IMG/VR virus record: IMGVR_UViG_3300044472_000055
Span: 1-64,000 of that record
Origin: a virus
Length of the DNA stretch: 64,000 bases
Reading direction: 5' to 3' (one strand)
In this document: piece after piece, positions 32,294 through 50,918 of the stretch
Layout: every line of letters starts with the position of its first letter
How positions within the stretch are numbered: position 1 is the first letter of the stretch
Program-made: the position numbers and the translations under genes
The notes under the pieces: generated by a model
The model's input: the letters and a program-made list of their open reading frames with translations, nothing else
Told to the model about the DNA's origin: nothing
Database searches by the model: none

Positions 32294-32653
32294 CTATCGT
32301 CCGGCGGTAGCTGCCTCTACCAACACGTCGTAAATCTCGCCGTCATCGAGGCTTCCCTCATGTTTCGAGGATCCTCGTCCACGTGTGATCAGCACCGTCG
32401 TTGGCATTCCACTCACACCATATTGGTCGGCGAGCGCTTGAATCCCTTGATCTGTACTCGTGGCATCGTAGATGAGGACGGGGATCGTCTTCGGGGCAAT
32501 CGGCTTGCCAGTAGAATGGTAGACGAAGCGATGACCCAGACGTTGGAAGCCCTCCAGCTGACGCTGGAATCGCGGTAGGTAATCTTCACAGGCGCCACAT
32601 CCTGGCATCGCGAAGACGATCAGCACTGCGTTGACGCGCGACAGGTCGCTCAT
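32294..32653 (-). CDS. thioredoxin-like oxidoreductase
   Basis: VFAMPGCGAC; LADQYGVSGMPT cis-Pro motif. Confidence 0.85.
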   Translation of the reverse strand: MSDLSRVNAVLIVFAMPGCGACEDYLPRFQRQLEGFQRLGHRFVYHSTGKPIAPKTIPVLIYDATSTDQGIQALADQYGVSGMPTTVLITRGRGSSKHEGSLDDGEIYDVLVEAATAGR

Positions 32654-33567
32654 GCTGCAGTCGTATCAGATTCGGGCAACGAGAGGAGTGGTTTGCCATC
32701 ACGATGGCGCTGCCACAGCTTCCAAGCGACGATCGCCCCGAACCCCGCGAGAACGGTGAAACCCGTCCATTGCAGAAGCCCCCACGTACCGTTGGCTTCC
32801 CACGACGTCTTGATGTTGGGCTTGTCGATGAGCTTGGCGCAGCGATCGAGGCAGACCTCATTGGTGCCACCCTGTTGCACACAGGTCTGATAGCAAGCAA
32901 GCCGTGACGCCGTGTAATTCGCGAAGGCATCGGCCTGCAGCTTCACCTGCTTGACGTTGGCCTCCTGAATCGCATTGGTCTCCAGATACTTCAAGATCGC
33001 AGAGACGACCGCACCGACGACAACGATGCTGATTACCGCGATCACGATGAGCACACCCGCGCCAATCCCGAGACCCGCGATCTGCTGCTGCTTCTCGTTC
33101 TCGCGATGTGCTTGCAGCTCCATCAGCATCTTGAAGCTCGGGGCAGACTCTGGGTTGTACACCCACTGATCTGTCGTCGAGATATCGATGTCGTTCGTCG
33201 ACAAGTACTGCGTGTTCTCGTCGGGACCGCGCAGCGCCGTGCCCATGAGGCCCGACAGTGGCTGGTTCTGCCCATCGCAGTTGATCTTCCAGGCCTCAGA
33301 ACCTTGGATACCCTTCCACGTGAACAACGTCGGCATCGGGGGCTCCGACGGAACATTCTGCCCCGCCGCCTTGAGTGTCGACAGCATGCCGCGTTGCGCA
33401 TTCCAGATCATCAACGCGAACACGTTGTAGGTCTTGACCTCAGCACACGTCGCGCGTCCGAGCTGCAAGAGCCCGCTGATCTGTGCCGCTGACTTCCGCA
33501 GGCTCTCGTACGTCTGCTGCAGTGCGTCCGCGATATTTTTCAAACGTTGCTCTTCACTCGTCGCCAT
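32650..33567 (-). CDS. two-TM Cys-containing putative virion membrane protein
   Basis: TMs flank CYQTC...CLDRC; TAGACT-N6-ATG. Confidence 0.7.
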   Translation of the reverse strand: MATSEEQRLKNIADALQQTYESLRKSAAQISGLLQLGRATCAEVKTYNVFALMIWNAQRGMLSTLKAAGQNVPSEPPMPTLFTWKGIQGSEAWKINCDGQNQPLSGLMGTALRGPDENTQYLSTNDIDISTTDQWVYNPESAPSFKMLMELQAHRENEKQQQIAGLGIGAGVLIVIAVISIVVVGAVVSAILKYLETNAIQEANVKQVKLQADAFANYTASRLACYQTCVQQGGTNEVCLDRCAKLIDKPNIKTSWEANGTWGLLQWTGFTVLAGFGAIVAWKLWQRHRDGKPLLSLPESDTTAA

Positions 33568-33922
33568 GCCTGAAGTCTAAACTAAATGAATGTCCTTGGA
33601 GTGGCGTGCTTTGCGGAGCTTCACGTAGGAGTGCCGCAGCTGGCCAAGCGTTGCGTCGCAGCGCCAGACAGTGGCTTGCCAGGCCCGACAGTGCTTCGCA
33701 TCGTAGTGCGGCTATAGCACAACAAAAACAAGGCGTGCTACAAGCGCCGTCCGCTATGCCCGTGACCCCCGAAGAGAAGACCGAACGCGCTCTCTGCACC
33801 CTCGCCGATTGGGCCTTCGAGTGTCGAGATCTGCTCGAAGCAAAGCCCGCCGTGAGGGTCGAATCTCTCGACGTGTTGCTTCGGCCGGGTGTGCTTCGGA
33901 GGCGTCGTGACGAGCGCGAGCG

Positions 33923-34888
33923 CTAGTCTTCGAGACCGACGGTCCAACCGCTGATACGACCGTTGCCACTGGTTTCTGCGTACAGCATGAGATACGCCGC
34001 CGCTGGATTGCAGATGTGGAACCGGACACTCGCCAAGCCACCGGCATCTGCCGTCTCGGTTCGCTCACCGACAGTCTCTTCCTGTACGGTGGCGCTGTAG
34101 TTCATCGTCCGCAGAACTGCTGCACGGAACGTGAACGTGTCGCCACCTGCTGCGTTGTTGCCGCGCATTTTGACGACAACATTCTTGCGCCCGTAGATCG
34201 GCACCTGCTGAATCAGCACTTCACCGAGACCTGCTAGCGCCGTCGTCGCATTGTCGACGTTGCCGAAGATCTGCGGCATGCGTTTGGTAGAAACCAAAAT
34301 GTCCGGGCGCAGCAACAGACGCAGCTGCAACGTCGGTGGAATCCACTTGGCATTGATACCCGGTGGGATCGGGTTCAACGTGACAACGGTGCCATCCTCC
34401 TTCAGATACGAAGGCGGCACTTCCGTCGACGTGATATTCGACGCGCCTTGCCGCTGGATGTTCGCGACCACATACATGAGCCCCTGCGACTGCGCGAGCC
34501 ACGGGTTGTTCACGTTGGTGGGAGTGTATGGCGAGATCGTATTCGAAAGGGACGGAGCCCTCTTCGCGGCCTGCGTGAACAGCAAAGGCTGTTCAACACT
34601 GATCCCGCGCACGAGATCGGCCGTACGGTTCAGCTGCGCGACATCCTTGCTCGGGTTTGTCGAGATCCAGCAACGATCGACCATGCTCTCGGGACCGATG
34701 GCAATACCGGCCAACGAGTTCGGCAACCCGGGCTGGGTGAAGTACGGGTACGAATCGATGCCGAGCAACGAAGGCAGGTTGTTGACGTCGATGCGTGTGC
34801 CCCAGTAGTGCACCCACACGTCGTAAACGTCTGCCTGACGCGCGATCGCGTCCTGGAGGCTCAGCGACGGTGTTTCGATAATTGCCAT
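33923..34888 (-). CDS. putative virion structural protein
   Basis: Beta-rich; downstream of the small capsid candidate. Confidence 0.6.
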   Translation of the reverse strand: MAIIETPSLSLQDAIARQADVYDVWVHYWGTRIDVNNLPSLLGIDSYPYFTQPGLPNSLAGIAIGPESMVDRCWISTNPSKDVAQLNRTADLVRGISVEQPLLFTQAAKRAPSLSNTISPYTPTNVNNPWLAQSQGLMYVVANIQRQGASNITSTEVPPSYLKEDGTVVTLNPIPPGINAKWIPPTLQLRLLLRPDILVSTKRMPQIFGNVDNATTALAGLGEVLIQQVPIYGRKNVVVKMRGNNAAGGDTFTFRAAVLRTMNYSATVQEETVGERTETADAGGLASVRFHICNPAAAYLMLYAETSGNGRISGWTVGLED

Positions 34889-34891
34889 GGC

Positions 34892-35215
34892 CTAGGACTC
34901 CATCTGCCCCTGAGACAGCGCCTCAGAGACCGCGATCGAGGCGAACCCGCCAGCGCCGATACACGCCGCGTAAATGCCCTGCTTCGGCATCAGCACGAAG
35001 ACCTCGGAGGCGCCCGCTGGCAGGCGGAAGCATCCTGCCAACGGGTTGTCGTTCTGCAGCACCGTTGTCTCGTGTGCGATGATCATCAGCGCACCACCCG
35101 AATTGCGCACGACGATACGCATCGGAACGTCATTCGCCTTGAACAAGGTGGCCGGATCATTGCCTTGCGCAGGCACGAGCAGCGTGTTGATGAAGCTATC
35201 GGTCGGCTTACGCAT
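34892..35215 (-). CDS. small beta-sandwich (penton-like) protein
   Basis: RIVVRNSG...FRLPAGASEVFVL. Confidence 0.55.
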   Translation of the reverse strand: MRKPTDSFINTLLVPAQGNDPATLFKANDVPMRIVVRNSGGALMIIAHETTVLQNDNPLAGCFRLPAGASEVFVLMPKQGIYAACIGAGGFASIAVSEALSQGQMES

Positions 35216-35247
35216 GACTGTCACCCCCAGCGCTTACGGTGAAGGTG

Positions 35248-35757
35248 TTAGCGGCTCTCCGACGCGGGGGCCACGACGATGAGGAACCCTTGGAACGAGA
35301 TCTCCAGCCGCAGCCCGTTCAGATCATCGATCGGCGCGGGATTCACCGGGAACGTCAGCGCATCAGCGACGATCTGGATCAGCTCGGTGCGGATGAGGTA
35401 GTAGGGTTCGGCCCACTCCCACGTACGCTCGCTCGAACCCTTCGTGAGCAGGTTCAGGAGCGTCGGCGACTTCGTGAGTGGCGTGTTCTTGCCGAGGTCG
35501 GTGATCGCCACGCGCAGCAACGACTGCATGAGATCCTGATCCGGCTGCGTGGCCAGCGCGACACCCGTGCTGTCGAGCGCCGTGACGCGCGGGATCATGC
35601 GATGGATCTCGAACGGCTTGTCGATGTTGTTCGCGAAGGTCGCGTCCGGGAACTGCTGTCCCGTTGCACCCGACGTCAGCGTCAGCTCCCCGTCCATCTC
35701 GTAGGGGATGCGCATCGTGATGAGCTTTTCAGCCCAGTGGCTTGGCAGACGACCCAT
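35248..35757 (-). CDS. candidate small single-jelly-roll capsid protein
   Basis: 169 aa, alternating beta pattern ending RLEISFQGFLIV; SD AGGAG; size comparable to small MCPs of two-MCP SJR viruses. Confidence 0.45.
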   Translation of the reverse strand: MGRLPSHWAEKLITMRIPYEMDGELTLTSGATGQQFPDATFANNIDKPFEIHRMIPRVTALDSTGVALATQPDQDLMQSLLRVAITDLGKNTPLTKSPTLLNLLTKGSSERTWEWAEPYYLIRTELIQIVADALTFPVNPAPIDDLNGLRLEISFQGFLIVVAPASESR

Positions 35758-35786
35758 TGTGTAGCTCCTGTCGCCGTTTGAACTTG

Positions 35787-37381: not shown

Positions 37382-37413
37382 CCAGCGGAACCTAACCGCT
37401 GGGGATGACAGTC

Positions 37414-37977
37414 ATGCACCTGCAAGACACTCCCATGTGGTACGCCCGACCCATGTCGCTACTACTCTTCCTGTGGGCTCTCGTCGGCACCGACGCCATC
37501 TACGCCAATAACGTGCATGCCCTCGTGCCGCACATCGATCGCTCTGTCGTCGATGATCACGTGCGTGCCGCACGCCTCGCCGCCACAGAGCATGGCTTCG
37601 ATGTGGAGCTGCTCCTTGCTGTCGCGTACGTCGAAAGCCGCTTCGAGGGGAATGCCATCGGCCGCATGGAGGATGGGCGTCGTCGTGGTGGGGCGTGGAT
37701 CCACGAACACGCGCCTGGCACCGGTCCTCGTTTCTGCGGCGTCATGCAGGTGGGCACGCGTCACGATTGGAAGGCTTGCGCCGCCCTGCGAGACCTGACG
37801 GCGGGCTATGCGGCGGGGGCTCGCCTGCTCAAAGACTGGCTCAAGCTCAGCCGTGGCGACGTCTCAGACGCGTTGAACGGGTACGGTTGCGGGATGTGGG
37901 GGCTCAAGAACGGCTGCAAGCGTTACGCGAACCGCGTACTGGCCTACAGGCGCCACATCGCACGTACATCGAGCTGA
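37414..37977 (+). CDS. SLT-domain lytic transglycosylase with signal/TM segment
   Basis: LLLAVAYVESRF, GVMQV, AGARLL, ALNGY. Confidence 0.85.
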   Translation: MHLQDTPMWYARPMSLLLFLWALVGTDAIYANNVHALVPHIDRSVVDDHVRAARLAATEHGFDVELLLAVAYVESRFEGNAIGRMEDGRRRGGAWIHEHAPGTGPRFCGVMQVGTRHDWKACAALRDLTAGYAAGARLLKDWLKLSRGDVSDALNGYGCGMWGLKNGCKRYANRVLAYRRHIARTSS

Positions 37978-38011
37978 TCACGTTCCCCGGCTTGAGGTCG
38001 CGATCGGCAAC

Positions 38012-38032: not shown

Positions 38033-38039
38033 CGAGCCC

Positions 38040-38575: not shown

Positions 38576-38582
38576 CCTCCCG

Positions 38583-38650: not shown

Positions 38651-39358
38651 TTAGGTCACGTTACGGCGGACGAGGCCGTAGAGGTACGTCTTGCAGTCGG
38701 CGAACGTGAGGGCGGTCGAGCCGTCCGACGCAACCTGGTTGATCACCAGGGCGGCTTCGGGCGAGAACGCCATCTTGTAGCCGAGGTTCTCGCGCAGCCA
38801 GATCGGCAGCACGAGCGCGTTGCGATCACGCGGCGACGGGACGCCGTTCTGCGCCAGCTCGAAGTTCGAGTTGGTCGAGAACACGTTGAAGCCGTGACCC
38901 TGCGGGTAGTCCTGCATCACGCCGAACGTGTAGCGCTTCGCGTTGTACTCGAAGAACAGGAACGTCACGCGGTCGATGTTGAACAGCGTGCGGAGCGTCG
39001 GCGGATCCGACAGCGCGCCCGAGCCGTCCGCGAGGACCGGCTGCGACGCACCCGTCGCCGGGCGACACGCACGCGTGATCTTCACGCCGATGCCGTAGAT
39101 GTACATCTCCCACGACATCGGGAGACCCGTGTCACCGTTGCGGGGGACGTTCGTATCCACGTTCGTCATCGTGCGCGTGCCACCGGGGATCTGCTGCGAG
39201 CGACCGGCGGTGAACGCCTCGACCGGCGTGGTCTGGCCGTTCGCGAACTGCACCGTCGAGTACAGCTTGTCGTCGATCCAGTCCTCGATCGCGATCGTCT
39301 GACCGCTCGGGAGCGTGAGAGTGGAAGTACCAGGAGCAACACCAACAGTTCCAGCCAT
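38651..39358 (-). CDS. candidate major capsid protein, single jelly-roll type
   Basis: LYSTVQF...AF...T.VDTNV...GLP..WEMYIYGIGV...LVLPIWLREN...YLYG beta pattern; strong codon bias, AAGGA SD and its own UUCG terminator. Confidence 0.55.
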   Translation of the reverse strand: MAGTVGVAPGTSTLTLPSGQTIAIEDWIDDKLYSTVQFANGQTTPVEAFTAGRSQQIPGGTRTMTNVDTNVPRNGDTGLPMSWEMYIYGIGVKITRACRPATGASQPVLADGSGALSDPPTLRTLFNIDRVTFLFFEYNAKRYTFGVMQDYPQGHGFNVFSTNSNFELAQNGVPSPRDRNALVLPIWLRENLGYKMAFSPEAALVINQVASDGSTALTFADCKTYLYGLVRRNVT

Positions 39359-39467: not shown

Positions 39468-40085
39468 TTAGCGACCGCCGCCGAGCAGCGTGGCACCGTA
39501 CGAAGCCGAGAGGCCGTGGACCTGCGGACCGCCCATGCCGAGCAGCTGCGCCGCCATCGGACCCGGGTTGCCGAGCAGGCTCACCGGAGGACCGGAGAGG
39601 TGGCCAGCCATGCCGACCTGGTTGCCGGCGACACCCGGGATCGTGCCGACGGGCGGACGAACCTGGTTGATCGACGGAACACCGAGGCTGACACCACTGA
39701 GCGAGCGGATCTGCGGCATGCCGAGACCACCGTTCAGATCACGGATCTGCGGGATGCCCATGCCCGAGACGCCTGCTGCGGCCTTGCCGCCGAAGAGCAG
39801 CCCCTCGACCCAGCGGAGACCCGCTGCGATGAGTGCACCGAACGCAACGCCCGCCGCCGCATGACGCGTCGACTTCATCGCGTAGAAGGTGCCGGCGGTC
39901 GCGAGACCGAGACCGAGACCGATCAGCTCGCGGTGCTTCGCCTGCGACGTATGAGCCGCCGCGAGCGAACCAACGAACGAGACGCCACCACCGATGAGAG
40001 CACCAGTGAGAGGGGAGATGCCGCCACCGAAGTCGCTGAGACCGAGGAGGTCGACCTTGCCGAGCATGCCGCGCTTACGAGCCAT
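39468..40085 (-). CDS. Gly-rich multi-TM virion membrane protein
   Basis: 3 hydrophobic segments; repeated G(M/L)G.PQIR; upstream of the capsid candidate. Confidence 0.7.
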   Translation of the reverse strand: MARKRGMLGKVDLLGLSDFGGGISPLTGALIGGGVSFVGSLAAAHTSQAKHRELIGLGLGLATAGTFYAMKSTRHAAAGVAFGALIAAGLRWVEGLLFGGKAAAGVSGMGIPQIRDLNGGLGMPQIRSLSGVSLGVPSINQVRPPVGTIPGVAGNQVGMAGHLSGPPVSLLGNPGPMAAQLLGMGGPQVHGLSASYGATLLGGGR

Positions 40086-40301: not shown

Positions 40302-40769
40302 TTAGCCCGCCCAGTAGAGGGACGCCGCGCGACGCGCCGCCATCACATCCGCTGCCTCGCGGATCGTGTAGTCACGGCGCATGCCGGGGTTGCCGACGAG
40401 CATGAACACGGCCTTCGCACGACCCGCCATCTCGGGCGAGAGCACGCCTGCGGCTGCAGACGCCGTCGGGCCTGGGGCCTGCGCGATCGGCGGGCCCGAC
40501 ACCGGAGCCGCCGACGCCATGAACTTCGCCGCCTTCTTTGCCGCGATGCGCGCCTTGAGCGTCGCCCACCACTGCGAGAGACGACCACCGCTCGCGCCGA
40601 GACCGGACAGCTGCATGCCACTCGGGGGACCGAGTGTGAATGCGGCAGCAACGGCCTGCACGTCTGCCTGCGGCTGATAGCCGACGATCGACGTGAGGAC
40701 GCCCGTGCGATAAACGCGATCGGGCCGAACAACGTGCGCTTCGCCGCCGTGACGCAGGATGGTTGTCAT
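40302..40769 (-). CDS. putative virion protein
   Basis: In the capsid operon; contains LSGLG. Confidence 0.65.
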   Translation of the reverse strand: MTTILRHGGEAHVVRPDRVYRTGVLTSIVGYQPQADVQAVAAAFTLGPPSGMQLSGLGASGGRLSQWWATLKARIAAKKAAKFMASAAPVSGPPIAQAPGPTASAAAGVLSPEMAGRAKAVFMLVGNPGMRRDYTIREAADVMAARRAASLYWAG

Positions 40770-40962
40770 GGAAAGAACGATGCACCACGTAGGCATTGTT
40801 CGTCAACGATTCTAAATACTTAGACACTACAGCGAAGATCGACACCTGCAAGATCCTGATTAGTAACCAACTGGCGATCTGCCGAATTGATCAATTCAGA
40901 TCAGGAAGTGCTAGTGTCTTCGCAGAGCTGGGGGCAGCTCGAACCGAAATCGCTGCCCATCT

Positions 40963-43089: not shown

Positions 43090-43092
43090 GGA

Positions 43093-43668
43093 TCAGCGGC
43101 GACCGCAGCGGCCGACGACCTTGGTGCTCTTCGCGCCTCGGGTCATGCCCTTGGCCCACTCGATCGCCAGCTCTTTCGACGGAGCCTCGATACAGAGGCT
43201 CTGCGAGCCCTTGAGCTTGCGATGCCGCACCGACACGCGGTAACCCGCGAGCCCGTTCATCGCCGAGGGCGGGGGCGTCTTCGACAGCTTCTTGCGGATC
43301 GTGCCTGCTGCGAGTAGGCCGGCACCGACGAGAACAGCGCCGACGATCCACTTGCCGTAGCCCTTGGCCACGCTCTTCGCGTTCGTCACGATGCGCACGG
43401 GCAGCGGGCCATCATCGAGTGCCTGTAGCACTGGAATGAGGTCGTCTTCGGTCTTGTCGAAGGCTGCCGCATACGCAACTGATTCATCCGCGACGGCTTC
43501 GTTGTACGCCTCTTCGAGAAGCTCACGATTGCCGAACGGAATCGTCTCTGCATTGACACCGCTCGGGCCGAACGTCACCAGGACGTAGGTCCAGTCGGAG
43601 TTGTGCGAGCGCCGTGCGGCCTCGGTCTTGTAGTCGAAAGCTTCGCCGAGCGAACGAATGTTCATCAT
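43093..43668 (-). CDS. membrane protein with basic C-terminal domain
   Basis: Internal TM WIVGAVLVGAGLLAA; MNGLAG precedes the basic tail. Confidence 0.7.
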   Translation of the reverse strand: MMNIRSLGEAFDYKTEAARRSHNSDWTYVLVTFGPSGVNAETIPFGNRELLEEAYNEAVADESVAYAAAFDKTEDDLIPVLQALDDGPLPVRIVTNAKSVAKGYGKWIVGAVLVGAGLLAAGTIRKKLSKTPPPSAMNGLAGYRVSVRHRKLKGSQSLCIEAPSKELAIEWAKGMTRGAKSTKVVGRCGRR

Positions 43669-43862
43669 CGCAGCACCTTCCCGATGATCACGAGTGCGCC
43701 AATTCCGAGGACGCCGACGGCACTGAGCGCGATCGGCTTGCGGTTACGCCACCACCACGAATCGAACGGGTTGTTCGTCAGGAGGTCGGGCAGATCGACA
43801 AGTCCGAAGGGGCGCGGCCCCCAGAGCTGATCGGCCATCGTATGTTGACGCATGAGCATCAT
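43665..43862 (-). CDS. small tail-anchored membrane protein
   Basis: WWWRNRK followed by TM. Confidence 0.65.
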   Translation of the reverse strand: MMLMRQHTMADQLWGPRPFGLVDLPDLLTNNPFDSWWWRNRKPIALSAVGVLGIGALVIIGKVLR

Positions 43863-43868
43863 GGCTCG

Positions 43869-44261
43869 TTACTTCTTCACCTTCCGCTTGCCGAAGCCCT
43901 GCGAGAAGGCGACGACCGGCGTCACGATGGGTGCGATGCTACCGAAGAAGCCCCACACGAGAGCCCAACCGATGGACTCGTTACGCTTGTAGCCATGATA
44001 CGTGCTGAGCGCGCCCGACACGATGCTGAGCGCCGCCCAGATCTTCGACGCCACGCTCGACTCCCCGAGGCCGTTCAAGCCGTTCATGCCCGAGAAGTAC
44101 GGCCCGAGAGGCTGCACCGTCGTCTGGAAGACGCCCTCAGGGAACTTCACGAATGGGTTGATCTTCGGATTGACGGCAGGATCCATCGAGAACTGCCACG
44201 ACGGGATCAGTCCGAGACCTGCGATACCCGCCGGCTTGGCGGAGTTGCGTGCGATCATCAT
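43869..44261 (-). CDS. small membrane protein (YHGYKRN family)
   Basis: Paralogue of 44265-44666. Confidence 0.7.
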   Translation of the reverse strand: MMIARNSAKPAGIAGLGLIPSWQFSMDPAVNPKINPFVKFPEGVFQTTVQPLGPYFSGMNGLNGLGESSVASKIWAALSIVSGALSTYHGYKRNESIGWALVWGFFGSIAPIVTPVVAFSQGFGKRKVKK

Positions 44262-44264
44262 GTG

Positions 44265-44666
44265 CTATTTCTCCTCGGCAAAGCCTTGCGCGACCATGAT
44301 CGCGCTGGTGAACACGGGGAAGACGGTTCCACAGGCGAACCAAATCATCCCCCACAAGATTGAAGTGTTGCGGCGATAGCCGTGGTACGCGGCGAACGCT
44401 GCTGCAGTGAGTGTGAGTGCACCCTTGATCTGCGAGCCGCTGAGCTTGCCTGCCGTATCGATCCACGACAACGCACCCGCGACCGCCGATGCTGCAACGC
44501 CACGCTCGATGAGCCGTTGTGCGGCTTCGGTACGTTCGGCGCCGTACACCTGAAGGAACGGCACGATCTCCGTGCTCGTTGGCTTCGGCGTCTTGAGCAG
44601 GAAAGCGTCGACGGCGCGATCGAGATCATCGCCGGTCGCGCCGAGGCTGAAGACATGCGCGTTCAT
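44265..44666 (-). CDS. small membrane protein (YHGYRRN family)
   Basis: Shared YHGY.RN.SI.W...W...P......QGF. Confidence 0.7.
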   Translation of the reverse strand: MNAHVFSLGATGDDLDRAVDAFLLKTPKPTSTEIVPFLQVYGAERTEAAQRLIERGVAASAVAGALSWIDTAGKLSGSQIKGALTLTAAAFAAYHGYRRNTSILWGMIWFACGTVFPVFTSAIMVAQGFAEEK

Positions 44667-44668
44667 CG

Positions 44669-45373
44669 TTACGCCGGGAAGTCCAGGGTGTCAGCCGCAG
44701 GAACCTCGACACCGAACTTGTCGTTGCCCGGTAGTGTCGTATCGAGCGCGATGAACTTCTCGCCGCCGAACTTCGGCAGGAGCGCGCCCGGATAGATGTG
44801 GCTCCAGTCGTCCCGCTTGCGCTCCTTCATCACACGCAGGCGTGGCGTGATGCCGTTGAGCGCGAGCAGCGTCGCCGTCAGAATCGACTGGTCGTCGCAG
44901 TCGCCGCCGCCGAATTCGAGCGTGCGAGAGCCCATCTGGTAGAGGTCGACACCTTCGACAGTGCCGTCCTCCCACGCGATCGGCGCGATGTCGCCCGTGT
45001 AGCGGACATTCTGCTTCACGTAGTCGTAGATCGCCTTCGCTTCGCAAAGGCCGTCACGCTCCGGGCAGTTACGCGTGATGTCGAGCGCGAGCTTGCGCAT
45101 GCGCCCGTCCTGCACACCCTCGCGAACGTAGCGCTGGATCGTCGCCAGTCGCTGCTCGATCGGCATGTCGTCCGCCTTGCGCAGCTGCGTGCGAAATCCG
45201 CCCGCGTTGCGCTCGCTGATGACGGGCGCTTCAGGTACCTGCTTCAGCGAGAGTCGGCCGAGTGCGCCTTGCTTTTGCTGGCGTCGAAAGAGGATCGCAC
45301 CACCGATGACCAAGCCCACGCCAGTGAGGCCGGTGAGCAACATAAGGCGATTGGTCTGCACGCCTGTCAGCAT
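44669..45373 (-). CDS. membrane-anchored transglutaminase-like cysteine protease
   Basis: GGGDCDDQSIL (Cys), WSHIYP (His), ALDTT (Asp); N-terminal TM. Confidence 0.85.
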   Translation of the reverse strand: MLTGVQTNRLMLLTGLTGVGLVIGGAILFRRQQKQGALGRLSLKQVPEAPVISERNAGGFRTQLRKADDMPIEQRLATIQRYVREGVQDGRMRKLALDITRNCPERDGLCEAKAIYDYVKQNVRYTGDIAPIAWEDGTVEGVDLYQMGSRTLEFGGGDCDDQSILTATLLALNGITPRLRVMKERKRDDWSHIYPGALLPKFGGEKFIALDTTLPGNDKFGVEVPAADTLDFPA

Positions 45374-45396
45374 ACACGAAGTGATAGGCTGACTCT

Positions 45397-47043
45397 GTGC
45401 TGACCTTCGGTCGTAAATTCTTCGGACTCGGTGCATTGGCACCTACGCGCTCCACGGAGCCCAGCAAAACATCGCTCTTTACGACGACAACGCCAACCAA
45501 TACGACTCCAGTGCCAGTCGTTGGCATGTGTACACCAGATGGAAAGTACATTTGGAGTGGCAGCGGTTGGGCAGCAAAGCGCGCCGCCCAAACGTGTCAG
45601 GGCACGTTTGATCCGAACATCAAGGTGCCCGCACCGACGGCTGCTCCGAGCTATTCGTGCTCGCCCGATGGATTGGAGTACGTCTACGACGGTGCTGCAG
45701 GCGTGTGGCAACCGACAGGCCGCACGTGCACGCCGACGGCAACCCCGACGACACCGCCAGCATCGGTGAACACGCCGACGAATCCGTACAGCGCAACGAA
45801 CCTGCCGACGAGCAGCGGTGGCGGCATCACGGTCACCGAACGTCCAAGCCTGCGCACGGTTCTTGGGAAGCGAGACGCGCTTGTCTCGAAACTCAACATC
45901 GATGCGATCGCGGAATTGATCGCGCTCGCACCGACTCTACCCGCGTGCCCAGAATCGTCTCTCGGTACCGACGGAGATTGCTACAGCCAGACACCACATC
46001 CTTCGCTTCCTTCGATGACCTTGCCGCCAGGTTCATTCGAATACTTCGGCGTGGTGTTCCACGTCAGCGAGATTCAGGCGGGCGGACGGTTCGAGAAGAA
46101 CTTCTTCGTGCCCGACGCGAATCAGAAGCTGCTGATGGATGCCGCGCTCCTCGAAGCTTCACATCGAGTCTACGCGAGCTACGACGACATCTCATTTTCG
46201 GTGAAGGCTGCATCACAGAATCGACCGGATGATTTCCGGACGGCTGTGGATGGCTTCGCGCTCAATCCCGTGCAGCCCACTGAGGAGGAGATGACTACGG
46301 GTGGCGGCTACGCACGGTGGCGGGCTCGTGGCGGATACCCCCTCTCGTTGGAGATTCTGCGTGGAGCAAAGCGCGTCAATGAAACTGGCGTGAGCTTTCC
46401 AATCTGCGCGTCCATCAAATGCGCGTGTCCCCAGGACAACGCGAAATACGATGCATGGCGCGGCGTCGGGTACATCGCGCCCGACCAGCAAGTCGTGCAG
46501 TGGCCTCGCTGCATTGGCGGTGTGATCTCAGCCAAAGGGCTTCAGACAGGCATCGGCACGGACCCGATCAGCTGGGACGTGTTCATCGCGATCGACGAGT
46601 CCAACCCGTCGCAGTACTCGATGCACCTCGTCGCGCAAAAAGACAGCTGGGTGGAAAAGGTCGGCGAGTTCATGGCCGAACAGCTGCAGAAACTGGCCGG
46701 TGTGTTCTGCGCGGCCGCGCCCTCGGTCAAGGAGCAGCTCACGACAAGCGTCTCCGAGAAGTGCGTCGACAAGCAGCAGAAGTCTTGTACGAAAGGCGCG
46801 CCTGGCTGCACATGCGTGAAGCCGACAACGTCGGCGCAGGTTGGTGTTCACGCGTTCAACGCGTGGGCATCGTATTGGTGCGGCGCATGGATGCAGGAAA
46901 ATACGGCCCCCATGCACGAGGAGCCGATGCCGCAGGTACCGCCTGAAATGCAAGCTGCGCCTTCGATGCCATGGTGGCAGTGGGGCCTTGTCGCCGCTGG
47001 TGGCGTTGGTGTCGGCGCCATGCTCTTCAATCGGAGGAAGTGA
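45397..47043 (+). CDS. large Cys-rich protein with Pro/Thr linkers and C-terminal TM
   Basis: Two C.PDG..Y repeats; many Cys; PWWQW followed by TM. Confidence 0.75.
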   Translation: MLTFGRKFFGLGALAPTRSTEPSKTSLFTTTTPTNTTPVPVVGMCTPDGKYIWSGSGWAAKRAAQTCQGTFDPNIKVPAPTAAPSYSCSPDGLEYVYDGAAGVWQPTGRTCTPTATPTTPPASVNTPTNPYSATNLPTSSGGGITVTERPSLRTVLGKRDALVSKLNIDAIAELIALAPTLPACPESSLGTDGDCYSQTPHPSLPSMTLPPGSFEYFGVVFHVSEIQAGGRFEKNFFVPDANQKLLMDAALLEASHRVYASYDDISFSVKAASQNRPDDFRTAVDGFALNPVQPTEEEMTTGGGYARWRARGGYPLSLEILRGAKRVNETGVSFPICASIKCACPQDNAKYDAWRGVGYIAPDQQVVQWPRCIGGVISAKGLQTGIGTDPISWDVFIAIDESNPSQYSMHLVAQKDSWVEKVGEFMAEQLQKLAGVFCAAAPSVKEQLTTSVSEKCVDKQQKSCTKGAPGCTCVKPTTSAQVGVHAFNAWASYWCGAWMQENTAPMHEEPMPQVPPEMQAAPSMPWWQWGLVAAGGVGVGAMLFNRRK

Positions 47044-47501: not shown

Positions 47502-47544
47502 CGCGCTCGCGCAGCGCAAACGATAGATGGTAGGCTCAGCAGCA

Positions 47545-48036
47545 ATGCTGATCCCCGTCGTGCTTTCTGGTCCGCCCGCGCATCTCATGGGGTCGGCAGC
47601 TATCGAACAGCTGCAGACCGCACTGACGAGCCTCGCGAAGGTTCGTAATCGTCCCGCGATCAATCCCGGTGGTGTGACCGGCGAGCTGAACGATCAGACG
47701 ATGGTCGCGCTCAACGCTGCTCTCGGCATTCTCGCCGAAGAACTTCCGAGCTGGCTCTACCTCGCACTGCAGGGTGCATTCATCGCGGGCGGCACGTCCG
47801 ACACCGCGAAGAAGTACACCGCGCAATACGCGCCACAGCTCACGATTGCCATCAACACGGCAGTCACGAAGTACCGCATGAGTCATCCGACGGCGCCCGT
47901 TGTCGTCGCGGATCCTGTGGTCGCTGTGAGTCCATGGGACGGCTGGTACAAGAAGCCGTGGGGCATCGGTCTCATCGTCATCGGCGTGCTCGGAGTGGGT
48001 TACTTCATGTTCTCGCCCAAGAAGGCAGCTGCGTAA
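47545..48036 (+). CDS. PGBD-like protein with C-terminal TM
   Basis: IEQLQTAL...PGGVTGELNDQTMVAL; WYKKPW plus TM. Confidence 0.65.
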   Translation: MLIPVVLSGPPAHLMGSAAIEQLQTALTSLAKVRNRPAINPGGVTGELNDQTMVALNAALGILAEELPSWLYLALQGAFIAGGTSDTAKKYTAQYAPQLTIAINTAVTKYRMSHPTAPVVVADPVVAVSPWDGWYKKPWGIGLIVIGVLGVGYFMFSPKKAAA

Positions 48037-48045
48037 GCTCGTCCC

Positions 48046-48381
48046 ATGTTCTTCGGTGTCATCGAAGACGTTCAGGCGATCGTCCACAAGGCAGGTCCGT
48101 ACCTGAACACGATCGTCAAGGTCGTCAACGACCCGGCGCTTCCGCAGTTCATTGCGCGAGTCGAAGCGATCGACGCGCTCGATTCAGGCGGGAGTCCGAG
48201 TAGCTCGTCGACCGCAAATGCTGATCGCAGTGGCGTCGGGCTCAAGAATTTCTTGATGCCTCTCGACGCATACATCTACGTTCGAAAGAATCCGTGGGTG
48301 CCGTGGGCGCTCGGTGGCGCGTTTGTGCTCCTCGTCGGCGGAATCGGGTATGGCATCGGAAAACGAAGGGCCGTACGATAG
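48046..48381 (+). CDS. tail-anchored membrane protein
   Basis: NPWVPW, TM, KRR; TAAGCT-N6-ATG. Confidence 0.7.
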   Translation: MFFGVIEDVQAIVHKAGPYLNTIVKVVNDPALPQFIARVEAIDALDSGGSPSSSSTANADRSGVGLKNFLMPLDAYIYVRKNPWVPWALGGAFVLLVGGIGYGIGKRRAVR

Positions 48382-48385
48382 CCGC

Positions 48386-48685
48386 ATGCATACTGTCGGC
48401 GTCGCGCCTGGAACCATCACGATGCAGCTCGGGCAGTGCCCGGCCGACCCGCCGTGGCAGTACTTCACGCCGCCGTATCCAGGCTACGGCATGAAGCGGC
48501 CCGTTGCTGCGGCCGGTCCGACGGTCAAGCCGATCGAAACGACGTTCGAGCCCTACGGCACGGAGAGCAAGCTAATGGGGTTGCGCGCCGCCGATCCGCT
48601 GGCGACGCGCTGGGACATCGTCGCTATGGCAGCCGGCGGTACGCTGCTCGCGGCCGTCGTACTTGCAGCCATTGCTACGCGATGA
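48386..48685 (+). CDS. tail-anchored membrane protein
   Basis: TACGAT-N6-ATG; C-terminal TM. Confidence 0.65.
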   Translation: MHTVGVAPGTITMQLGQCPADPPWQYFTPPYPGYGMKRPVAAAGPTVKPIETTFEPYGTESKLMGLRAADPLATRWDIVAMAAGGTLLAAVVLAAIATR

Positions 48686-48903
48686 GCACGCCGCCCATTA
48701 CGGCGCTCCTGTGTGAGCGCTGCGGGCGAGACGGCAACGCGAACGCCGTGGCAAACGCCGAAGAGTACGCAAAGCAAGCATCGACACCGAAGCAGGCTGC
48801 GGAACGCTTCAGAGGCTACATTCGGCGGCATCCGTACCTGCAACGATGTGGTAAGTGCTCGACGGTGTACTGCACCCGAGAAGGCTGCACGTGCCGATGC
48901 TAG
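48682..48903 (+). CDS. small Zn-finger protein
   Basis: CERC...CGKC...C. Confidence 0.55.
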   Translation: MSTPPITALLCERCGRDGNANAVANAEEYAKQASTPKQAAERFRGYIRRHPYLQRCGKCSTVYCTREGCTCRC

Positions 48904-48945
48904 TGCTATGCATGGGCTGATTGAGGTCGTGGTAGCGTAGTGTCC

Positions 48946-49488
48946 ATGAGCCTCGGCATCATCCTCACGCCCTACGGCCAGATTCCTGGCGCGTACCCGT
49001 CGGCGATCAACTACAGCTACGGCGGCAACGGGCAGTATCTTTGCCCGCCCGATCCGCAGTTCAACACGCGTGGCGAGCAGGGGCTCTACTTCGACACGCA
49101 GCTCGGCAACGGTCAGAAGCTATCGTTCTGGCAGCGAATGAAGCTGCGCCGTCAGCTCGGACAGATCCCGACTGACGCCGAGTTGTCGACGGTGTATCAG
49201 TACACGCCTGTCGCTTCGGGATGGGTTGCCTCGAAGGAGGCCTACTACCCGAACCCGTGGCTGCCGCCGAATGGGTGGAATCAGGCCGGAGCATACGGCC
49301 CGCAGCCGCAGCTACGTGGTCTTGCCGAGGGCGAGGTCTCTGCTGATGCACACGATGTCATCGCGGCGCTTAATGCCCACAATGCACGCGTGTTCGCGCT
49401 GACGTTGGTGTCGACGGCAGCCGTCGCGATCTCGGCGACTCTTGGCGCGTACCGCACGCTCAAGCTACTGCGCGAACGCAAGAAGTAG
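48946..49488 (+). CDS. tail-anchored membrane protein
   Basis: TAGCGT-N7-ATG; C-terminal TM and basic end. Confidence 0.7.
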   Translation: MSLGIILTPYGQIPGAYPSAINYSYGGNGQYLCPPDPQFNTRGEQGLYFDTQLGNGQKLSFWQRMKLRRQLGQIPTDAELSTVYQYTPVASGWVASKEAYYPNPWLPPNGWNQAGAYGPQPQLRGLAEGEVSADAHDVIAALNAHNARVFALTLVSTAAVAISATLGAYRTLKLLRERKK

Positions 49489-49689
49489 TGTTCTCCGAGG
49501 ACGAATATCGAACAGACACTGAGCGCGTGATCGCATACGCGATCGCTACTGGTCGAGCAGTTGTCACGAGAGCCGATGGGACACCGAGAGTTGTTATCTT
49601 GATCCCGAAAGTAGAAATCCCCGCCCCGAGAGAATTCTCAGGACGGGGGATTGTCGACGAGTAATTCGGCGTGAACCCCGTCGACGAAA

Positions 49690-50430
49690 CTACGTCTTCT
49701 CGATGATGACCTCTTCGCCGCCTGCGTAGAGGATAGAGAACGGGCGCGAGAGATGCGCGGTCCGCACGCGGCCGTCGACGAGGATCTTGCCGCCTTCTTC
49801 CTTCACCTTGTGACAGAAGTATAGATCCTCGCTCAGCTCGTCGGTGAACTTGAAGTTCAGGTGGCCTGCCTTCTTGATGTTCACCGCGAAGATCGCTGTC
49901 GCGAGCGCGTCACACGATGTGAGCTTGCGTGGAAGCTCGCTCGGCGCCAATGCGACGAGCTTGCCTTCGGCAGGCGTAGCTTCGTGTTCGCCATATCCCG
50001 CATAGGCGATGCCTGCCGGTTTGGTTTCGTGCCAGTCGTAGACCATCAGCTCCGACGTCGGAGGCTTGAAACGATCGTGCCCGCTGTAGCGACGGATCAC
50101 GGGAGCACCGACGATCGTCGCTCCTTCTTTGTCGGCTTGCGAGATCATGCGCAGCAGTTGCACGCCCGCGTCCTCGTCACCGTTATTCACGGCCCACGTA
50201 TCGGCGTCGATCATCAGGAGCCAATCGGCGCCCGCATCGAGCGCTTCACGCAGTAGCCGATTGCGTGCCTTCTCGATGCCGCAATTGTCGATCATGAACC
50301 ATCCTGCAAGCTGGAAGCGTTCGTGACTCAGGGCCAGCGTGTGACCCAATTCGAGGAACATGAGAGTGTGTTCGGCAGAGACCTTGCCGCCGTACGCGGG
50401 CAGCCCGAAGGCGATTTTAAGGATGCTCAC
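49690..50430 (-). CDS. glycosyltransferase, GT2-like
   Basis: LPAYGG, ARNRL, WLLMIDAD, SEDLYFC, TAH; start moved to GTG 50430 after AAGGA. Confidence 0.85.
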   Translation of the reverse strand: MSILKIAFGLPAYGGKVSAEHTLMFLELGHTLALSHERFQLAGWFMIDNCGIEKARNRLLREALDAGADWLLMIDADTWAVNNGDEDAGVQLLRMISQADKEGATIVGAPVIRRYSGHDRFKPPTSELMVYDWHETKPAGIAYAGYGEHEATPAEGKLVALAPSELPRKLTSCDALATAIFAVNIKKAGHLNFKFTDELSEDLYFCHKVKEEGGKILVDGRVRTAHLSRPFSILYAGGEEVIIEKT

Positions 50431-50618
50431 AGGTGTCCTTGGTTGAGGGCCCAGACAGCAATCGTTGCCGTCAGAAGCGTCAGGAAGAGGCAGACAGCAA
50501 GGATCAGGCGCCAATACTCACCGTTGTCATCGATGTGATCACCGACGAGCACGAGGGCCATGAGAGTCAAAAAGCCGAGAAAGATGATCATTGGATTCAA
50601 CCTTGGTAGGCTCGATGC

Positions 50619-50918
50619 ATGGCCGAGGCCCGTCTCCCGACGTACAAGACTGCCGCAAGCGTTCTCGAACGAGACAAGGGCTCGGGCCTACGCCTCGCCG
50701 GATGGACGGTCGCACGCACGCTGCTGATCGCACCGCCAATGATGGTTGTCGGCGTTCCAGCGCGGCAGGCATTCATGGGTGCCGGCATTGCGTCGTTCTT
50801 CATCTCGATGCTCACGGTGCTTCGCGTGTTCGATGCGAGGTCTACGAACCTTGCCGGATTGAAGTACGGGAAGCGGCAGCACGCGCTCGCCGCTGGCCGA
50901 CGCCCCAAGCGACGATAA
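50619..50918 (+). CDS. small 2-TM membrane protein
   Basis: TAGGCT-N6-ATG; basic tail after LAGL. Confidence 0.65.
   Translation: MAEARLPTYKTAASVLERDKGSGLRLAGWTVARTLLIAPPMMVVGVPARQAFMGAGIASFFISMLTVLRVFDARSTNLAGLKYGKRQHALAAGRRPKRR

What the first reader, a model, noticed from the sequence alone, without database searches (positions are those of the whole stretch)
32650..50918. Recurrent (L/M/I)-x-G-(L/M)-G motif in virion proteins next to a membrane-anchored Cys protease: adenovirus-like maturation?
Seen: LSGLG (40302), IAGLG and MNGLNGLG (43869), MNGLAG (43093), VSGMG/LNGGLG/LLGMG (39468), IAGLG and LSGLMG (32650), LAGLG (33923), FFGLG (45397), LMGL (48386), LRGLA (48946), LAGL (50619). These often sit at boundaries between an N-terminal segment and a TM or basic domain. 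Gene 44669-45373 has a Cys-His-Asp transglutaminase-like triad. Known: adenovirus protease cleaves (M/L/I)xGx|G and (M/L/I)xGG|x, and transglutaminase-fold proteins can be proteases. Inference: a virus-encoded system that matures many virion pre-proteins at a shared signal.
Basis: partly seen in the sequence, partly recalled or inferred. Interest (0 to 1): 0.75.

Follow-up and report, generated by a model that had tools for sequence, protein, structure and literature searches.

The report
Shared Leu-x-Gly-Leu-Gly tag beside viral cysteine enzyme
A large uncultured bacterial virus and its relatives put the same short tag (Leu-x-Gly-Leu-Gly) on many unrelated, mostly membrane-anchored particle-module proteins next to a conserved cysteine enzyme that may cut there, as adenovirus does when its particle ripens, but no cutting has been shown.

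Summary
The motif is real. In this window alone the excess does not survive correction for after-the-fact motif choice: 7 observed against 1.04 expected, family-wise p 0.78. The pre-specified motif replicates in 23 related virus loci: 80 against 17.6 expected, still about 21 under local shuffles. An unbiased pattern scan ranks it first in three of those loci. It is kept at aligned positions inside variable linkers.

Gene 44669-45373(-) is a transglutaminase-fold enzyme with an invariant Cys-His-Asp set, an N-terminal membrane anchor and its own copy of the tag. It lies within 10 kb of the jelly-roll shell-protein candidate in 27 of 29 shell-anchored loci. Its only relative among deposited phages is a recorded structural protein of the membrane-containing phage SSIP-1.

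Cleavage is inferred, not shown. A docking-tag role and a cell-wall-lysin role for the enzyme remain open. The site has adenovirus form, but the enzyme fold is different. Earlier notes of this scan report the same motif and enzyme on other genomes.

The parts
44669..45373 (-). Membrane-anchored transglutaminase-fold Cys-His-Asp enzyme. It is 234 aa from the Met at 45373; the ORF is open up to 45442. Layout: N-terminal Gly-rich TM, a basic stretch, its own tag copy (GALG, nt 45257-45268), then the catalytic domain.
   Evidence: Pfam Transglut_core 27.8 bits against a cut-off of 23. 396 homologues, typically about 230 aa. C159, H192 and D211 are invariant, as are C103 and C110, and G39 is near-invariant in 42 sequences. 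AF2 model pLDDT 89.6. VIA-align Z 12.8 to 3kd4 and 11.5 to 3isr.
38651..39358 (-). Best-conserved protein of the module, 235 aa: candidate single jelly-roll major capsid protein.
   Evidence: 35-93% identical in 20 of 23 enzyme-anchored loci. AF2 model is mostly beta strands but weak, pLDDT 61. Best VIA matches are SPV1 capsid 6oj0 (Z 7.1) and HHIV-2 (Z 6.7), all below Z 8.
39468..40085 (-). Gly-rich 205-aa membrane protein with an N-terminal LLGL (nt 40035-40049), three tandem G-phi-G-[IML]-P repeats about 11 aa apart (nt 39681-39770) and LLGMG (nt 39531-39545). Candidate multi-site substrate or multivalent adaptor.
   Evidence: At the aligned sites, 9, 8 and 9 of 11 homologues keep G-phi-[GRA], and 11 of 11 keep phi-x-G at the first and last sites.
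40302..40796 (-). 164-aa protein with LSGLG (nt 40596-40610) ahead of a basic helix.
   Evidence: G-phi-[GR] is kept in 8 of 10 homologues and phi-x-G in 10 of 10.
43869..44261 (-). 130-aa protein: a short leader ending in IAGLG (nt 44211-44225), a conserved segment, MNGLNGLG (nt 44064-44078), then a C-terminal membrane domain with a basic tail.
   Evidence: Leader length varies (17, 9 and 5 aa) while conservation starts right after the G-L-G. The first site is kept in 5 of 11 members of a mixed paralogue family; the second is kept in only 2 of 12.
44265..44666 (-). Paralogue of the C-terminal membrane domain of 43869-44261, with a short N-terminal leader ending in SLG.
   Evidence: Homologues start with leaders ending in LLGLG or QLLG. 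Phi-x-G is present in 5 of 8.
32650..33567 (-). 305-aa protein with two TMs. IAGLG (nt 33067-33081) lies at the start of TM1, and LSGLMG (nt 33241-33258) lies upstream. It also has a Cys-rich segment.
   Evidence: GLG is kept in 4 of 4 homologues and LSG in 4 of 4.
48386..48685 (+). 99-aa tail-anchored protein. LMGLR (nt 48572-48586) lies about 10 aa before the TM. Its N-terminus resembles that of the capsid candidate.
   Evidence: L-x-G-L-[RG] is present in the homologues found.
48940..49488 (+). 182-aa tail-anchored protein. LRGLA (nt 49312-49326) lies in a highly variable linker about 25 aa before the TM and basic tail.
   Evidence: 10 of 11 locus homologues keep G-phi-[GRA]. In 81 database homologues the motif columns hold L 58, G 66, L 47 and G 48.
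50619..50918 (+). 99-aa membrane protein with LAGLK (nt 50850-50864) before a basic C-terminal tail.
   Evidence: Phi-x-G is kept in 7 of 9 homologues.
45397..47043 (+). 548-aa tail-anchored protein with an N-terminal FFGLG (nt 45418-45432).
   Evidence: An N-terminal G-phi-G is present in 3 of 5 homologues.
33923..34888 (-). 321-aa protein with LAGLG (nt 34223-34237). This is probably a chance match.
   Evidence: The site is kept in 1 of 4 homologues.
43093..43668 (-). 191-aa protein with MNGLAG (nt 43243-43260) after its TM. Conservation could not be shown.
   Evidence: 0 of 2 homologues keep the site.
37405..37977 (+). Lytic transglycosylase with a hydrophobic N-terminus. It shows that this genome already holds a cell-wall enzyme in the module.
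   Evidence: Pfam SLT 23.2 bits against a cut-off of 21.3. It is found in only 1 of 23 related loci.

Best explanation
L-x-G-phi-G is the recognition site of a virion-module cysteine protease, the membrane-anchored transglutaminase-fold enzyme encoded at 44669-45373(-). The core of the motif is G-[LMF]-G, and Leu at -4 and Gly at -2 are the best-kept positions.

Proposed mechanism. During or after assembly of a jelly-roll, internal-membrane particle, the enzyme sits on the cytoplasmic, capsid-facing side of the membrane. There it cuts itself free at its own tag. It also removes short N-terminal leaders, releases ectodomains from their C-terminal membrane anchors, chops the multi-site Gly-rich protein 39468-40085, and possibly removes poly-Arg tails from the basic proteins at 87.9-95 kb.

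What is shown: the motif, its conservation, the fold, the catalytic triad and the synteny. What is inferred: that cutting happens, that this enzyme does it, where in the motif the bond is cut, and that the substrates are virion proteins.
For: 1. The motif is order-specific, not compositional. In 23 related loci it occurs 80 times against 17.6 expected by global shuffles and about 21 by local shuffles.
2. The core G[LMFYW]G occurs 369 times against 177.6 expected in those loci. In this genome the region holds 19 against 9.1, while the rest holds 29 against 29.8.
3. De novo scans rank it first in L002, L003 and L004, with family-wise p of 0-0.02.
4. Sites are kept inside variable, indel-rich linkers of unrelated families. 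New sites appear at non-homologous places in relatives.
5. The conservation profile puts Leu and the first Gly highest. This matches the form of the adenovirus site (M/I/L)XGX-G (PMC3386624, passage), for example IVGL|G (PMC4246237, passage).
6. The enzyme has Pfam Transglut_core above its cut-off, a Cys-His-Asp set invariant in 42 of 42 sequences, and fold matches of Z 12.8 and 11.5 to putative cysteine proteases and 9.0-9.4 to LapG.
7. LapG and DvhG are transglutaminase-like proteases that cut at Ala-Ala, and DvhG is predicted to be membrane-bound (PMC10990149, passages).
8. The enzyme carries its own tag 4-28 residues after the 19-residue TM window (modal offset 10-12): G-x-G in 32 of 42 sequences and x-L-G in the rest.
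9. K and R residues number 3.5 after the TM against 1.5 before it, with more after in 32 of 42 sequences. This predicts a cytoplasmic catalytic domain.
10. The enzyme is a core gene. It lies within 10 kb of the capsid candidate in 27 of 29 capsid-anchored loci, including 7 of the 9 contigs not already in the enzyme-anchored set.
11. SSIP-1 gp34, the only relative among 50,697 phage records, is annotated as a structural protein.
Against: 1. There are no cleavage data.
2. In this window alone the excess is not significant after correction.
3. The fold matches cross-linking transglutaminases (Z 9.8) and viral pseudomurein endoisopeptidases PeiP and PeiW (Z 9.9 and 9.3) as well as it matches proteases.
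4. A profile search against PDB sequences finds nothing.
5. More distant relatives keep the enzyme but show no LxGLG excess: L005, L017, L021, L022 and L026, and L042, L049, L050 and L052. The link between enzyme and motif is therefore not one to one.
6. Motif positions are no closer to N-termini or TM anchors than random positions in the same proteins.
7. There is no significant avoidance of the motif in the rest of the genome (1 against 2.5).
8. My gene calls come from a crude home-made caller covering 44-90% of a locus. L001 gave 5 motifs with one model and 0 with another.
9. Homologous sites are counted once per locus, so the pooled counts are not independent.
Confidence: 0.42

Rival explanations
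1. The tag is a docking or loading signal rather than a cut site. In this reading a short G-phi-G peptide in flexible leaders and linkers plugs into a pocket on the jelly-roll shell protein or on a vertex or membrane protein. That would recruit unrelated proteins, and the enzyme itself, into the particle, with the tandem-repeat protein 39468-40085 acting as a multivalent adaptor or scaffold. The tag could be cut off afterwards or never.
For: All the motif evidence fits equally well. The tandem copies 11 aa apart in 39468-40085 are kept in 8-9 of 11 homologues, which suits multivalent binding. The enzyme's own tag would then be its loading signal. A small membrane protein (48386-48685) shares the N-terminal VGVAPGT peptide with the shell candidate, which suggests peptide arms are used for lattice contacts. 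Known precedents are recalled, not checked here: encapsulin cargo-loading peptides and the T4 capsid targeting sequence.
Against: The best-kept positions are Gly and Leu with a free third residue, the pattern of Gly-specific cysteine-protease sites. A conserved catalytic enzyme sits in the middle of the tagged genes.
Confidence: 0.28
2. The enzyme is a virion-associated cell-wall hydrolase used at entry or lysis, like the transglutaminase-fold endoisopeptidases PeiW and PeiP or the NlpC/P60 lysins. It would then have nothing to do with the tag, which is read by another factor, a host protease, or none.
For: Fold matches to PeiP (Z 9.9) and PeiW (Z 9.3) are as good as to LapG, and psiM2 PeiP also appears in the viral library. 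The TM is Gly-rich, 4.2 Gly per 19 residues, as in signal-anchor-release lysins (recalled). The SLT lysin of this window is found in only 1 of 23 related loci, so relatives need some other conserved wall enzyme. A virion location, as for SSIP-1 gp34, also suits an entry lysin.
Against: Charge distribution predicts a cytoplasmic catalytic domain in 32 of 42 sequences. No cell-wall-binding domain was found. The enzyme's own conserved tag and its position among tagged genes would be coincidence.
Confidence: 0.15
3. The motif has no specific function. It would be a by-product of Gly/Leu-rich flexible linkers and membrane-proximal segments, inherited across related viruses.
For: The window alone is not significant after correction. 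There is no positional bias. 11 of 90 instances lie inside predicted TM helices. Shared ancestry inflates the pooled counts.
Against: Local shuffles that keep 10-20 aa composition still give only about 21 against 80 observed. Reversed and permuted versions are much less enriched, as are GG-phi, phi-GG, G-phi-A and A-phi-G. The rest of this genome shows no excess. Sites are retained where their flanks diverge, and they arise anew at non-homologous places.
Confidence: 0.07

Closest known systems
Adenovirus protease (AVP, adenain) and its sites (M/I/L)XGX-G and (M/I/L)XGG-X
   Same: The site has the same form; pVI is cut at IVGL|G (passages in PMC3386624 and PMC4246237). As in adenovirus, one signal is shared by many unrelated particle proteins, including membrane-active and very basic ones. 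The virus has a jelly-roll shell candidate.
   Different: AVP is a soluble enzyme of a different fold and catalytic order (clan CE is recalled, not checked). Here the order is Cys, His, Asp on a transglutaminase fold with a membrane anchor. The host is a bacterium, and no cleavage is shown. Any likeness would be convergent.
LapG / DvhG, bacterial transglutaminase-like cysteine proteinases (BTLCP)
   Same: Transglutaminase-fold Cys-His-Asp proteases that cut a defined site made of two small residues (Ala-Ala). DvhG is predicted to be membrane-bound (PMC10990149, passages). Fold match Z 9.0-9.4.
   Different: No sequence-family hit: only PF01841 and PF04473 appear at E up to 0.1. LapG and DvhG are cellular, act in the periplasm, depend on calcium and have a single adhesin substrate. 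Here the predicted orientation is cytoplasmic and there are many candidate substrates.
Salisaeta icosahedral phage 1 (SSIP-1) gp34
   Same: The only match among 50,697 deposited phage records (26% identity over 70% of the query, E 2e-7). It is annotated as a structural protein of a tailless, membrane-containing phage. SSIP-1's late gene block also shows a G-phi-G excess, 17 against 8.9 expected.
   Different: gp34 is 304 aa with its hydrophobic anchor at the C-terminus. The SSIP-1 genome is 43.8 kb against 121 kb or more here. Its function is unknown, and I could not read the primary paper.
T4 prohead protease gp21 with L/I-x-E sites and the capsid targeting sequence; phiKZ gp175 (recalled, not checked here)
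   Same: One short site is shared by many head proteins, and N-terminal leaders both load proteins and are then removed.
   Different: These are serine proteases of tailed phages with Glu at P1. There is no sequence or fold relation.
PeiW / PeiP pseudomurein endoisopeptidases of Methanobacterium (pro)viruses
   Same: Virus-encoded transglutaminase-fold cysteine enzymes; Z 9.3-9.9.
   Different: These are wall lysins. No membrane anchor or shared peptide tag is known to me for them (recalled).

Membership tests
Transglutaminase-like superfamily (Pfam PF01841, papain-like Cys-His-Asp) | Sequence match above the curated cut-off | tested here: met
   27.8 bits against a cut-off of 23, E 3.2e-6. 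Many homologues carry precomputed PF01841.
Transglutaminase-like superfamily (Pfam PF01841, papain-like Cys-His-Asp) | Catalytic Cys, His and Asp, in that order, conserved | tested here: met
   C159, H192 and D211 are invariant in 42 of 42 aligned homologues.
Transglutaminase-like superfamily (Pfam PF01841, papain-like Cys-His-Asp) | Transglutaminase core fold | tested here: met
   Model pLDDT 89.6. Z 12.8 to 3kd4, 11.5 to 3isr, and 9-10 to factor XIII, TG2 and TG3.
BTLCP / LapG proteases (Peptidase C93) | Sequence membership of the BTLCP family | tested here: not met
   A Pfam scan at E up to 0.1 lists only PF01841 and PF04473. A profile search of PDB sequences, which include LapG, finds nothing at E up to 1.
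BTLCP / LapG proteases (Peptidase C93) | Site-specific cleavage between small residues; calcium dependence; periplasmic action | not testable with these tools
   The fold is similar (Z 9.0-9.4). Charge bias predicts a cytoplasmic domain in 32 of 42 sequences.
Adenain (adenovirus protease) | Adenain fold and catalytic order | tested here: not met
   The order is Cys, His, Asp and the fold is the transglutaminase core. That adenain belongs to clan CE with His before Cys is recalled, not checked.
Adenain (adenovirus protease) | Substrate sites of the form (M/I/L)XGX-G on several virion precursors | tested here: met
   The motif form is present and conserved. This concerns sequence form only; cleavage was not tested.
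Virion or SAR-type cell-wall lysin | Catalytic domain exported to the periplasm (N-in anchor), or a wall-binding domain | tested here: inconclusive
   More K and R residues follow the TM than precede it in 32 of 42 sequences, which argues against export. No wall-binding domain was found. The Gly-rich TM and the PeiP/PeiW fold matches keep this reading open.
Jelly-roll, internal-membrane tailless viruses (SPV1, Sphaerolipoviridae, SSIP-1 type) | Jelly-roll major capsid protein | tested here: inconclusive
   Model pLDDT 61. Best matches are SPV1 (Z 7.1), HHIV-2 (6.7), HCIV-1 (6.2) and P23-77 VP17 (5.1), all below the Z 8 caution line. Foldseek finds no match at E up to 0.001, although many of its top rows are jelly-roll capsid proteins.
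Jelly-roll, internal-membrane tailless viruses (SPV1, Sphaerolipoviridae, SSIP-1 type) | No tailed-phage head or packaging genes; many small membrane proteins in the structural module | tested here: met
   Six-frame search of the 121-kb record (CheckV completeness 88%) finds no Terminase_6N, TerL_ATPase, Phage_portal or Phage_capsid. 13 of 28 region proteins have a predicted TM, against 18 of 117 elsewhere. Only four families were searched.

The most novel reading that the evidence does not exclude
The transglutaminase-fold enzyme may act like a sortase rather than as a simple protease. It would cut tail-anchored particle proteins at L-x-G-phi-G, upstream of their TM and basic tail, which is the three-part layout of sortase, exosortase and rhombosortase signals. 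Through its thioester intermediate it would then transfer them to an amine, either a capsid lysine or phosphatidylethanolamine of the internal membrane. The protein anchor would thus be exchanged for a covalent link. This would be the first enzyme-made covalent protein-lipid or protein-shell link in a bacterial virus. The evidence fits it no better than plain proteolysis, but does not exclude it: the fold matches true acyl-transferring transglutaminases at Z 9.8, and several substrates have the layout tag, TM, basic tail.
Probability: 0.07. Interest if true: 0.9.

Novelty: new variant of a known kind. Interest (0 to 1): 0.66.

Why it matters
If the tags are cut, this is a particle-maturation protease system in a bacterial jelly-roll, membrane-containing virus. 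[quoted passage not shown]

It would have arisen independently of the adenovirus enzyme, on a different fold, yet with almost the same site grammar. That would be a clear case of convergence.

It would also give a practical rule, the tag, for picking out particle proteins and their mature ends in a large and widespread group of uncultured viruses. That group has 396 enzyme homologues on contigs of 30-221 kb, and nearly all of its genes lack annotation.

My literature searches found no description of this motif or of this enzyme's role. They cover only open-access papers and bioRxiv.

Tried and rejected
Composition artefact: rejected. Local shuffles and permuted, reversed and Ala control motifs do not reproduce the excess.

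Unbiased tripeptide enrichment in the window region: GLG is not among the 12 most over-represented tripeptides listed. The window alone cannot carry the claim.

Positional bias towards N-termini or TM anchors: tested and not found.

Co-variation of enzyme and motif across clades. Distant clades keep the enzyme. Some show a G-phi-G excess without the upstream Leu (L015 31 against 9.4, L018 23 against 7.4, L017 19 against 8.1). Others show nothing (L022-L025; L042, L048-L052).

Link to the phage's ubiquitin-like set (E1, Ubl, JAMM at about 103-106 kb): the Ubl candidate does not end in the tag, so I dropped this.

PDB sequence-profile search with the enzyme family found nothing. PHROGs gave nothing for 10 region proteins. 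The shell candidate has no match in deposited phages.

Packaging ATPase: a Walker-A search found only three proteins, all outside the region, and I did not follow them up.

The SSIP-1 primary paper (Aalto et al. 2012), which may hold N-terminal sequences of virion proteins, is not held. Paper supplements are closed and may bear on the same point.

Full report
WHAT THE RECORD IS. The window is the first 64 kb of a single 121,351-bp virus record. CheckV puts its completeness at 88%, and it has no end repeats. GC is about 61%.

Almost all genes lack annotation. Pfam and PHROGs scans of 143 called proteins find replication and nucleotide-metabolism genes: family-A DNA polymerase, helicases, methyltransferases, dCMP deaminase, RIIA/RIIB and an integrase. 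No head, tail or terminase family appears among the 25 families listed by each scan. Six-frame searches for Terminase_6N, TerL_ATPase, Phage_portal and Phage_capsid find nothing.

In the finding's region, 13 of 28 called proteins have a predicted membrane helix, against 18 of 117 elsewhere.

The best-conserved protein of the region is 38651-39358(-), 235 aa. It folds into a mostly beta-strand model of low confidence, pLDDT 61. Its best structural neighbours are single jelly-roll capsid proteins of internal-membrane viruses: SPV1 Z 7.1, HHIV-2 6.7, HCIV-1 6.2 and P23-77 VP17 5.1. All are below the tool's caution line of Z 8.

I therefore read the region as the particle module of a large tailless, membrane-containing virus. 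That remains an inference.

THE OBSERVATION.

With my own rough gene calls, strict [LMI]xG[LM]G occurs 7 times in 5 of 28 region proteins. Both global and 20-aa local shuffles give 1.04-1.09 expected, and 0 of 500 shuffles reach 7. In the other 117 proteins it occurs once against 2.5 expected. Reversed and permuted controls are flat.

The motif ranks second, with 8 observed against 1.45 expected. However, 78% of shuffled protein sets yield some pattern at least as extreme. GLG is not among the 12 most over-represented tripeptides listed. The window alone proves nothing.

REPLICATION IN RELATIVES. The enzyme gene brought in 23 related IMG/VR loci with ±10 kb of flank. Enzyme identity to the window ranges from 83% down to 28%.

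The motif, now fixed in advance, occurs 80 times against 17.6 expected. Controls give: reversed 37 against 17.2, two permutations 26 against 17.1 and 21 against 16.5, and the Ala version 38 against 28.0. Shuffling within 10-20-residue blocks still gives only 21-23, with a maximum of 37 in 100 shuffles.

Single loci are strong on their own: L002 12 against 0.76, L003 10 against 0.98, L004 9 against 0.70, L011 6 against 0.60.

The same unbiased pattern scan, run locus by locus, ranks the motif first in L002, L003 and L004 (family-wise p 0.00-0.02). It ranks second in L011 and third in L013.

Of nine further contigs found through the shell protein rather than the enzyme, the three closer ones are enriched: L030 6 against 1.1, L037 6 against 0.9, L038 4 against 0.8. 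The six more distant or truncated ones are not.

The core G-[LMFYW]-G occurs 369 times against 177.6 expected in the 23 loci. By contrast GG-phi is 215 against 178, phi-GG 209 against 183, G-phi-A 194 against 219, A-phi-G 240 against 219 and G-[IV]-G 129 against 125. In this genome the core is 19 against 9.1 in the region and 29 against 29.8 elsewhere.

Caveats. The gene caller is home-made and covers 44-90% of a locus. L001 gave 5 motifs with the window-trained model and 0 with the self-trained one. Homologous sites are counted once per locus, so pooled numbers are not independent.

CONSERVATION. The sites persist where their surroundings do not.

In the 39468-40085 family, three tandem G-phi-G-[IML]-P units about 11 residues apart are kept in 9, 8 and 9 of 11 homologues. 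The N-terminal LLGL and the C-terminal L-x-G-x-GGP are kept in 11 of 11.

In the 48940-49488 family the tag sits in a linker full of insertions. 10 of 11 locus homologues keep G-phi-[GRA]. Among 81 database homologues that span the site, the motif columns hold L 58, G 66, L 47 (F 8) and G 48 (R 12). Leu at -4 and Gly at -2 are therefore the best-kept positions.

Other sites: 40302-40796 keeps the tag in 8 of 10 homologues, 32650-33567 in 4 of 4, and 50619-50918 keeps phi-x-G in 7 of 9.

LNGLR in 35248-35757, which I added, also fails (0 of 11).

Relatives also carry tags at non-homologous places, often within the first 10-35 residues.

In the 43869-44261 family the leader before the tag is 17, 9 or 5 residues long, and conservation begins right after it.

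Of 90 instances, 18 lie in the first 40 residues (16.9 expected at random positions in the same proteins), 12 lie within 40 residues upstream of a TM (9.7 expected) and 11 lie inside a TM (6.4 expected). Tag-bearing proteins are, however, more often membrane proteins: 38 of 63 against 151 of 365 overall.

Outside the region, several small basic proteins at 87.9-95 kb end in G-L-[SR]-G-A followed by a run of Arg. One begins with a string of L-x-G-L units.

THE ENZYME. Gene 44669-45373(-) matches Pfam Transglut_core above its cut-off. It has 396 database homologues, typically about 230 aa.

In 42 aligned homologues Cys159, His192 and Asp211 are invariant, as are two further cysteines, C103 and C110.

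The AF2 model is confident, pLDDT 89.6. Its neighbours are:
- putative cysteine proteases 3kd4 (Z 12.8) and 3isr (Z 11.5);
- factor XIII and TG3 (9.8);
- the viral pseudomurein endoisopeptidases PeiP (9.9) and PeiW (9.3);
- LapG (9.0-9.4).

The fold is therefore certain, but the chemistry is open: protease, cross-linker or wall hydrolase.

The protein starts with a Gly-rich TM, followed by a basic stretch. Then, 4-28 residues after the 19-residue TM window (modal offset 10-12), comes G-x-G (GLG in 26, GFG in 3, other middle residues in 3) in 32 of 42 sequences, and x-L-G in the rest. K and R residues average 3.5 after the TM and 1.5 before it, with more after in 32 of 42 sequences. This predicts a cytoplasmic catalytic domain.

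The enzyme is a core gene of the module. It lies within 10 kb of the shell candidate in 20 of 23 enzyme-anchored loci and in 27 of 29 shell-anchored loci. One exception is cut at the contig end and one has no hit. Of the nine contigs not found through the enzyme, 7 have it.

Among 50,697 deposited phage records the only match is gp34 of Salisaeta icosahedral phage 1 (26% identity, E 2e-7). SSIP-1 is a tailless phage with an internal membrane, and the record marks gp34 as a structural protein. An earlier scan note (e1-5831883) gave this lead, and I confirmed it. SSIP-1's late block shows a modest G-phi-G excess, 17 against 8.9 with 2 of 300 shuffles reaching it. Its tags lie at residues 17-34 of small proteins and between the catalytic domain and the C-terminal anchor of gp34.

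HOW IT MOST LIKELY WORKS. I rate proteolytic maturation as most likely, at 0.42.

The tag has the form of the adenovirus site (M/I/L)XGX-G (PMC3386624, passage read); pVI is cut at IVGL|G (PMC4246237, passage read). Transglutaminase-fold proteases that cut between two small residues are known, and one, DvhG, is predicted to be membrane-bound (PMC10990149, passages read). The enzyme carries its own tag where self-release would occur.

Against this: there are no cleavage data. More distant relatives keep the enzyme without the LxGLG excess. The fold fits other chemistries equally well.

A docking or loading tag (0.28) explains the same sequence facts, and suits the tandem repeats. An entry or lysis wall hydrolase unrelated to the tag (0.15) is kept alive by three points: the PeiP/PeiW matches, the Gly-rich anchor, and the fact that the window's SLT lysin occurs in only 1 of 23 relatives. 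Pure chance or linker composition (0.07) is unlikely after the controls.

NOVELTY. [quoted passage not shown] My three literature searches found no description of this motif or enzyme role in membrane-containing phages. They cover only open-access papers and bioRxiv.

Earlier notes of this scan report the same motif and enzyme pair on other genomes. Those notes are unchecked leads, not evidence.

I class this as a new variant of a known kind: site-specific proteolytic particle maturation, with a different enzyme fold and a new virus group. That classification is conditional on cleavage being shown.

Noticed in passing
window 39302-39358 (N-terminus of 38651-39358, - strand) and window 48386-48450 (+): The shell-protein candidate and the small tail-anchored protein 48386-48685 share an N-terminal peptide, VGVAPGT-x-T. 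It is conserved in the homologues of both (MCP consensus; the other family). It may be a shared arm that inserts into the capsid lattice.
   Followed up: partly
genome 87907-95047 (beyond the window; L008:4907-12047): Several small basic proteins end in G-L-[SR]-G-A followed by 4-6 Arg/Lys. The protein at 88218-88643 begins with repeated L-x-G-L units. This could be the same tag used to remove or load basic tails.
   Followed up: partly
window 32294-32653 (-): A thioredoxin-family protein (Pfam 25.6 bits against a cut-off of 23.5) lies directly downstream of the Cys-rich two-TM protein 32650-33567. It is present in 5 of 23 related loci.
   Followed up: no
window 43665-44666 (-) and L002:10688-11217: Domain shuffling occurs at the tag. 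The N-terminal segment and the C-terminal membrane domain that are fused through MNGLNGLG in 43869-44261 are encoded by separate genes in L002, each with its own tag or anchor.
   Followed up: partly
window 20254-23791 (-): Four consecutive ORFs of 287-301 aa have no Pfam match and low codon-usage scores. They may be a paralogue array.
   Followed up: no
window 52224-54413 (-): A 729-aa protein with a Pro/Gly/Tyr-rich segment, a long Glu/Arg/Gln coiled-coil-like middle and a C-terminal run of about 25 Asp/Glu. It is conserved in 13 of 23 related loci. Function unknown.
   Followed up: no
genome 103101-105567 (beyond the window): A ThiF/E1-like protein, a ubiquitin-like candidate and a JAMM-like ORF (noted earlier in the scan). 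The Ubl candidate does not end in the tag.
   Followed up: partly
window 61920-61993 (-): ARAGORN reports a tRNA with a four-base anticodon (ttat) next to a tRNA-Phe. This is the subject of another finding of this scan.
   Followed up: no
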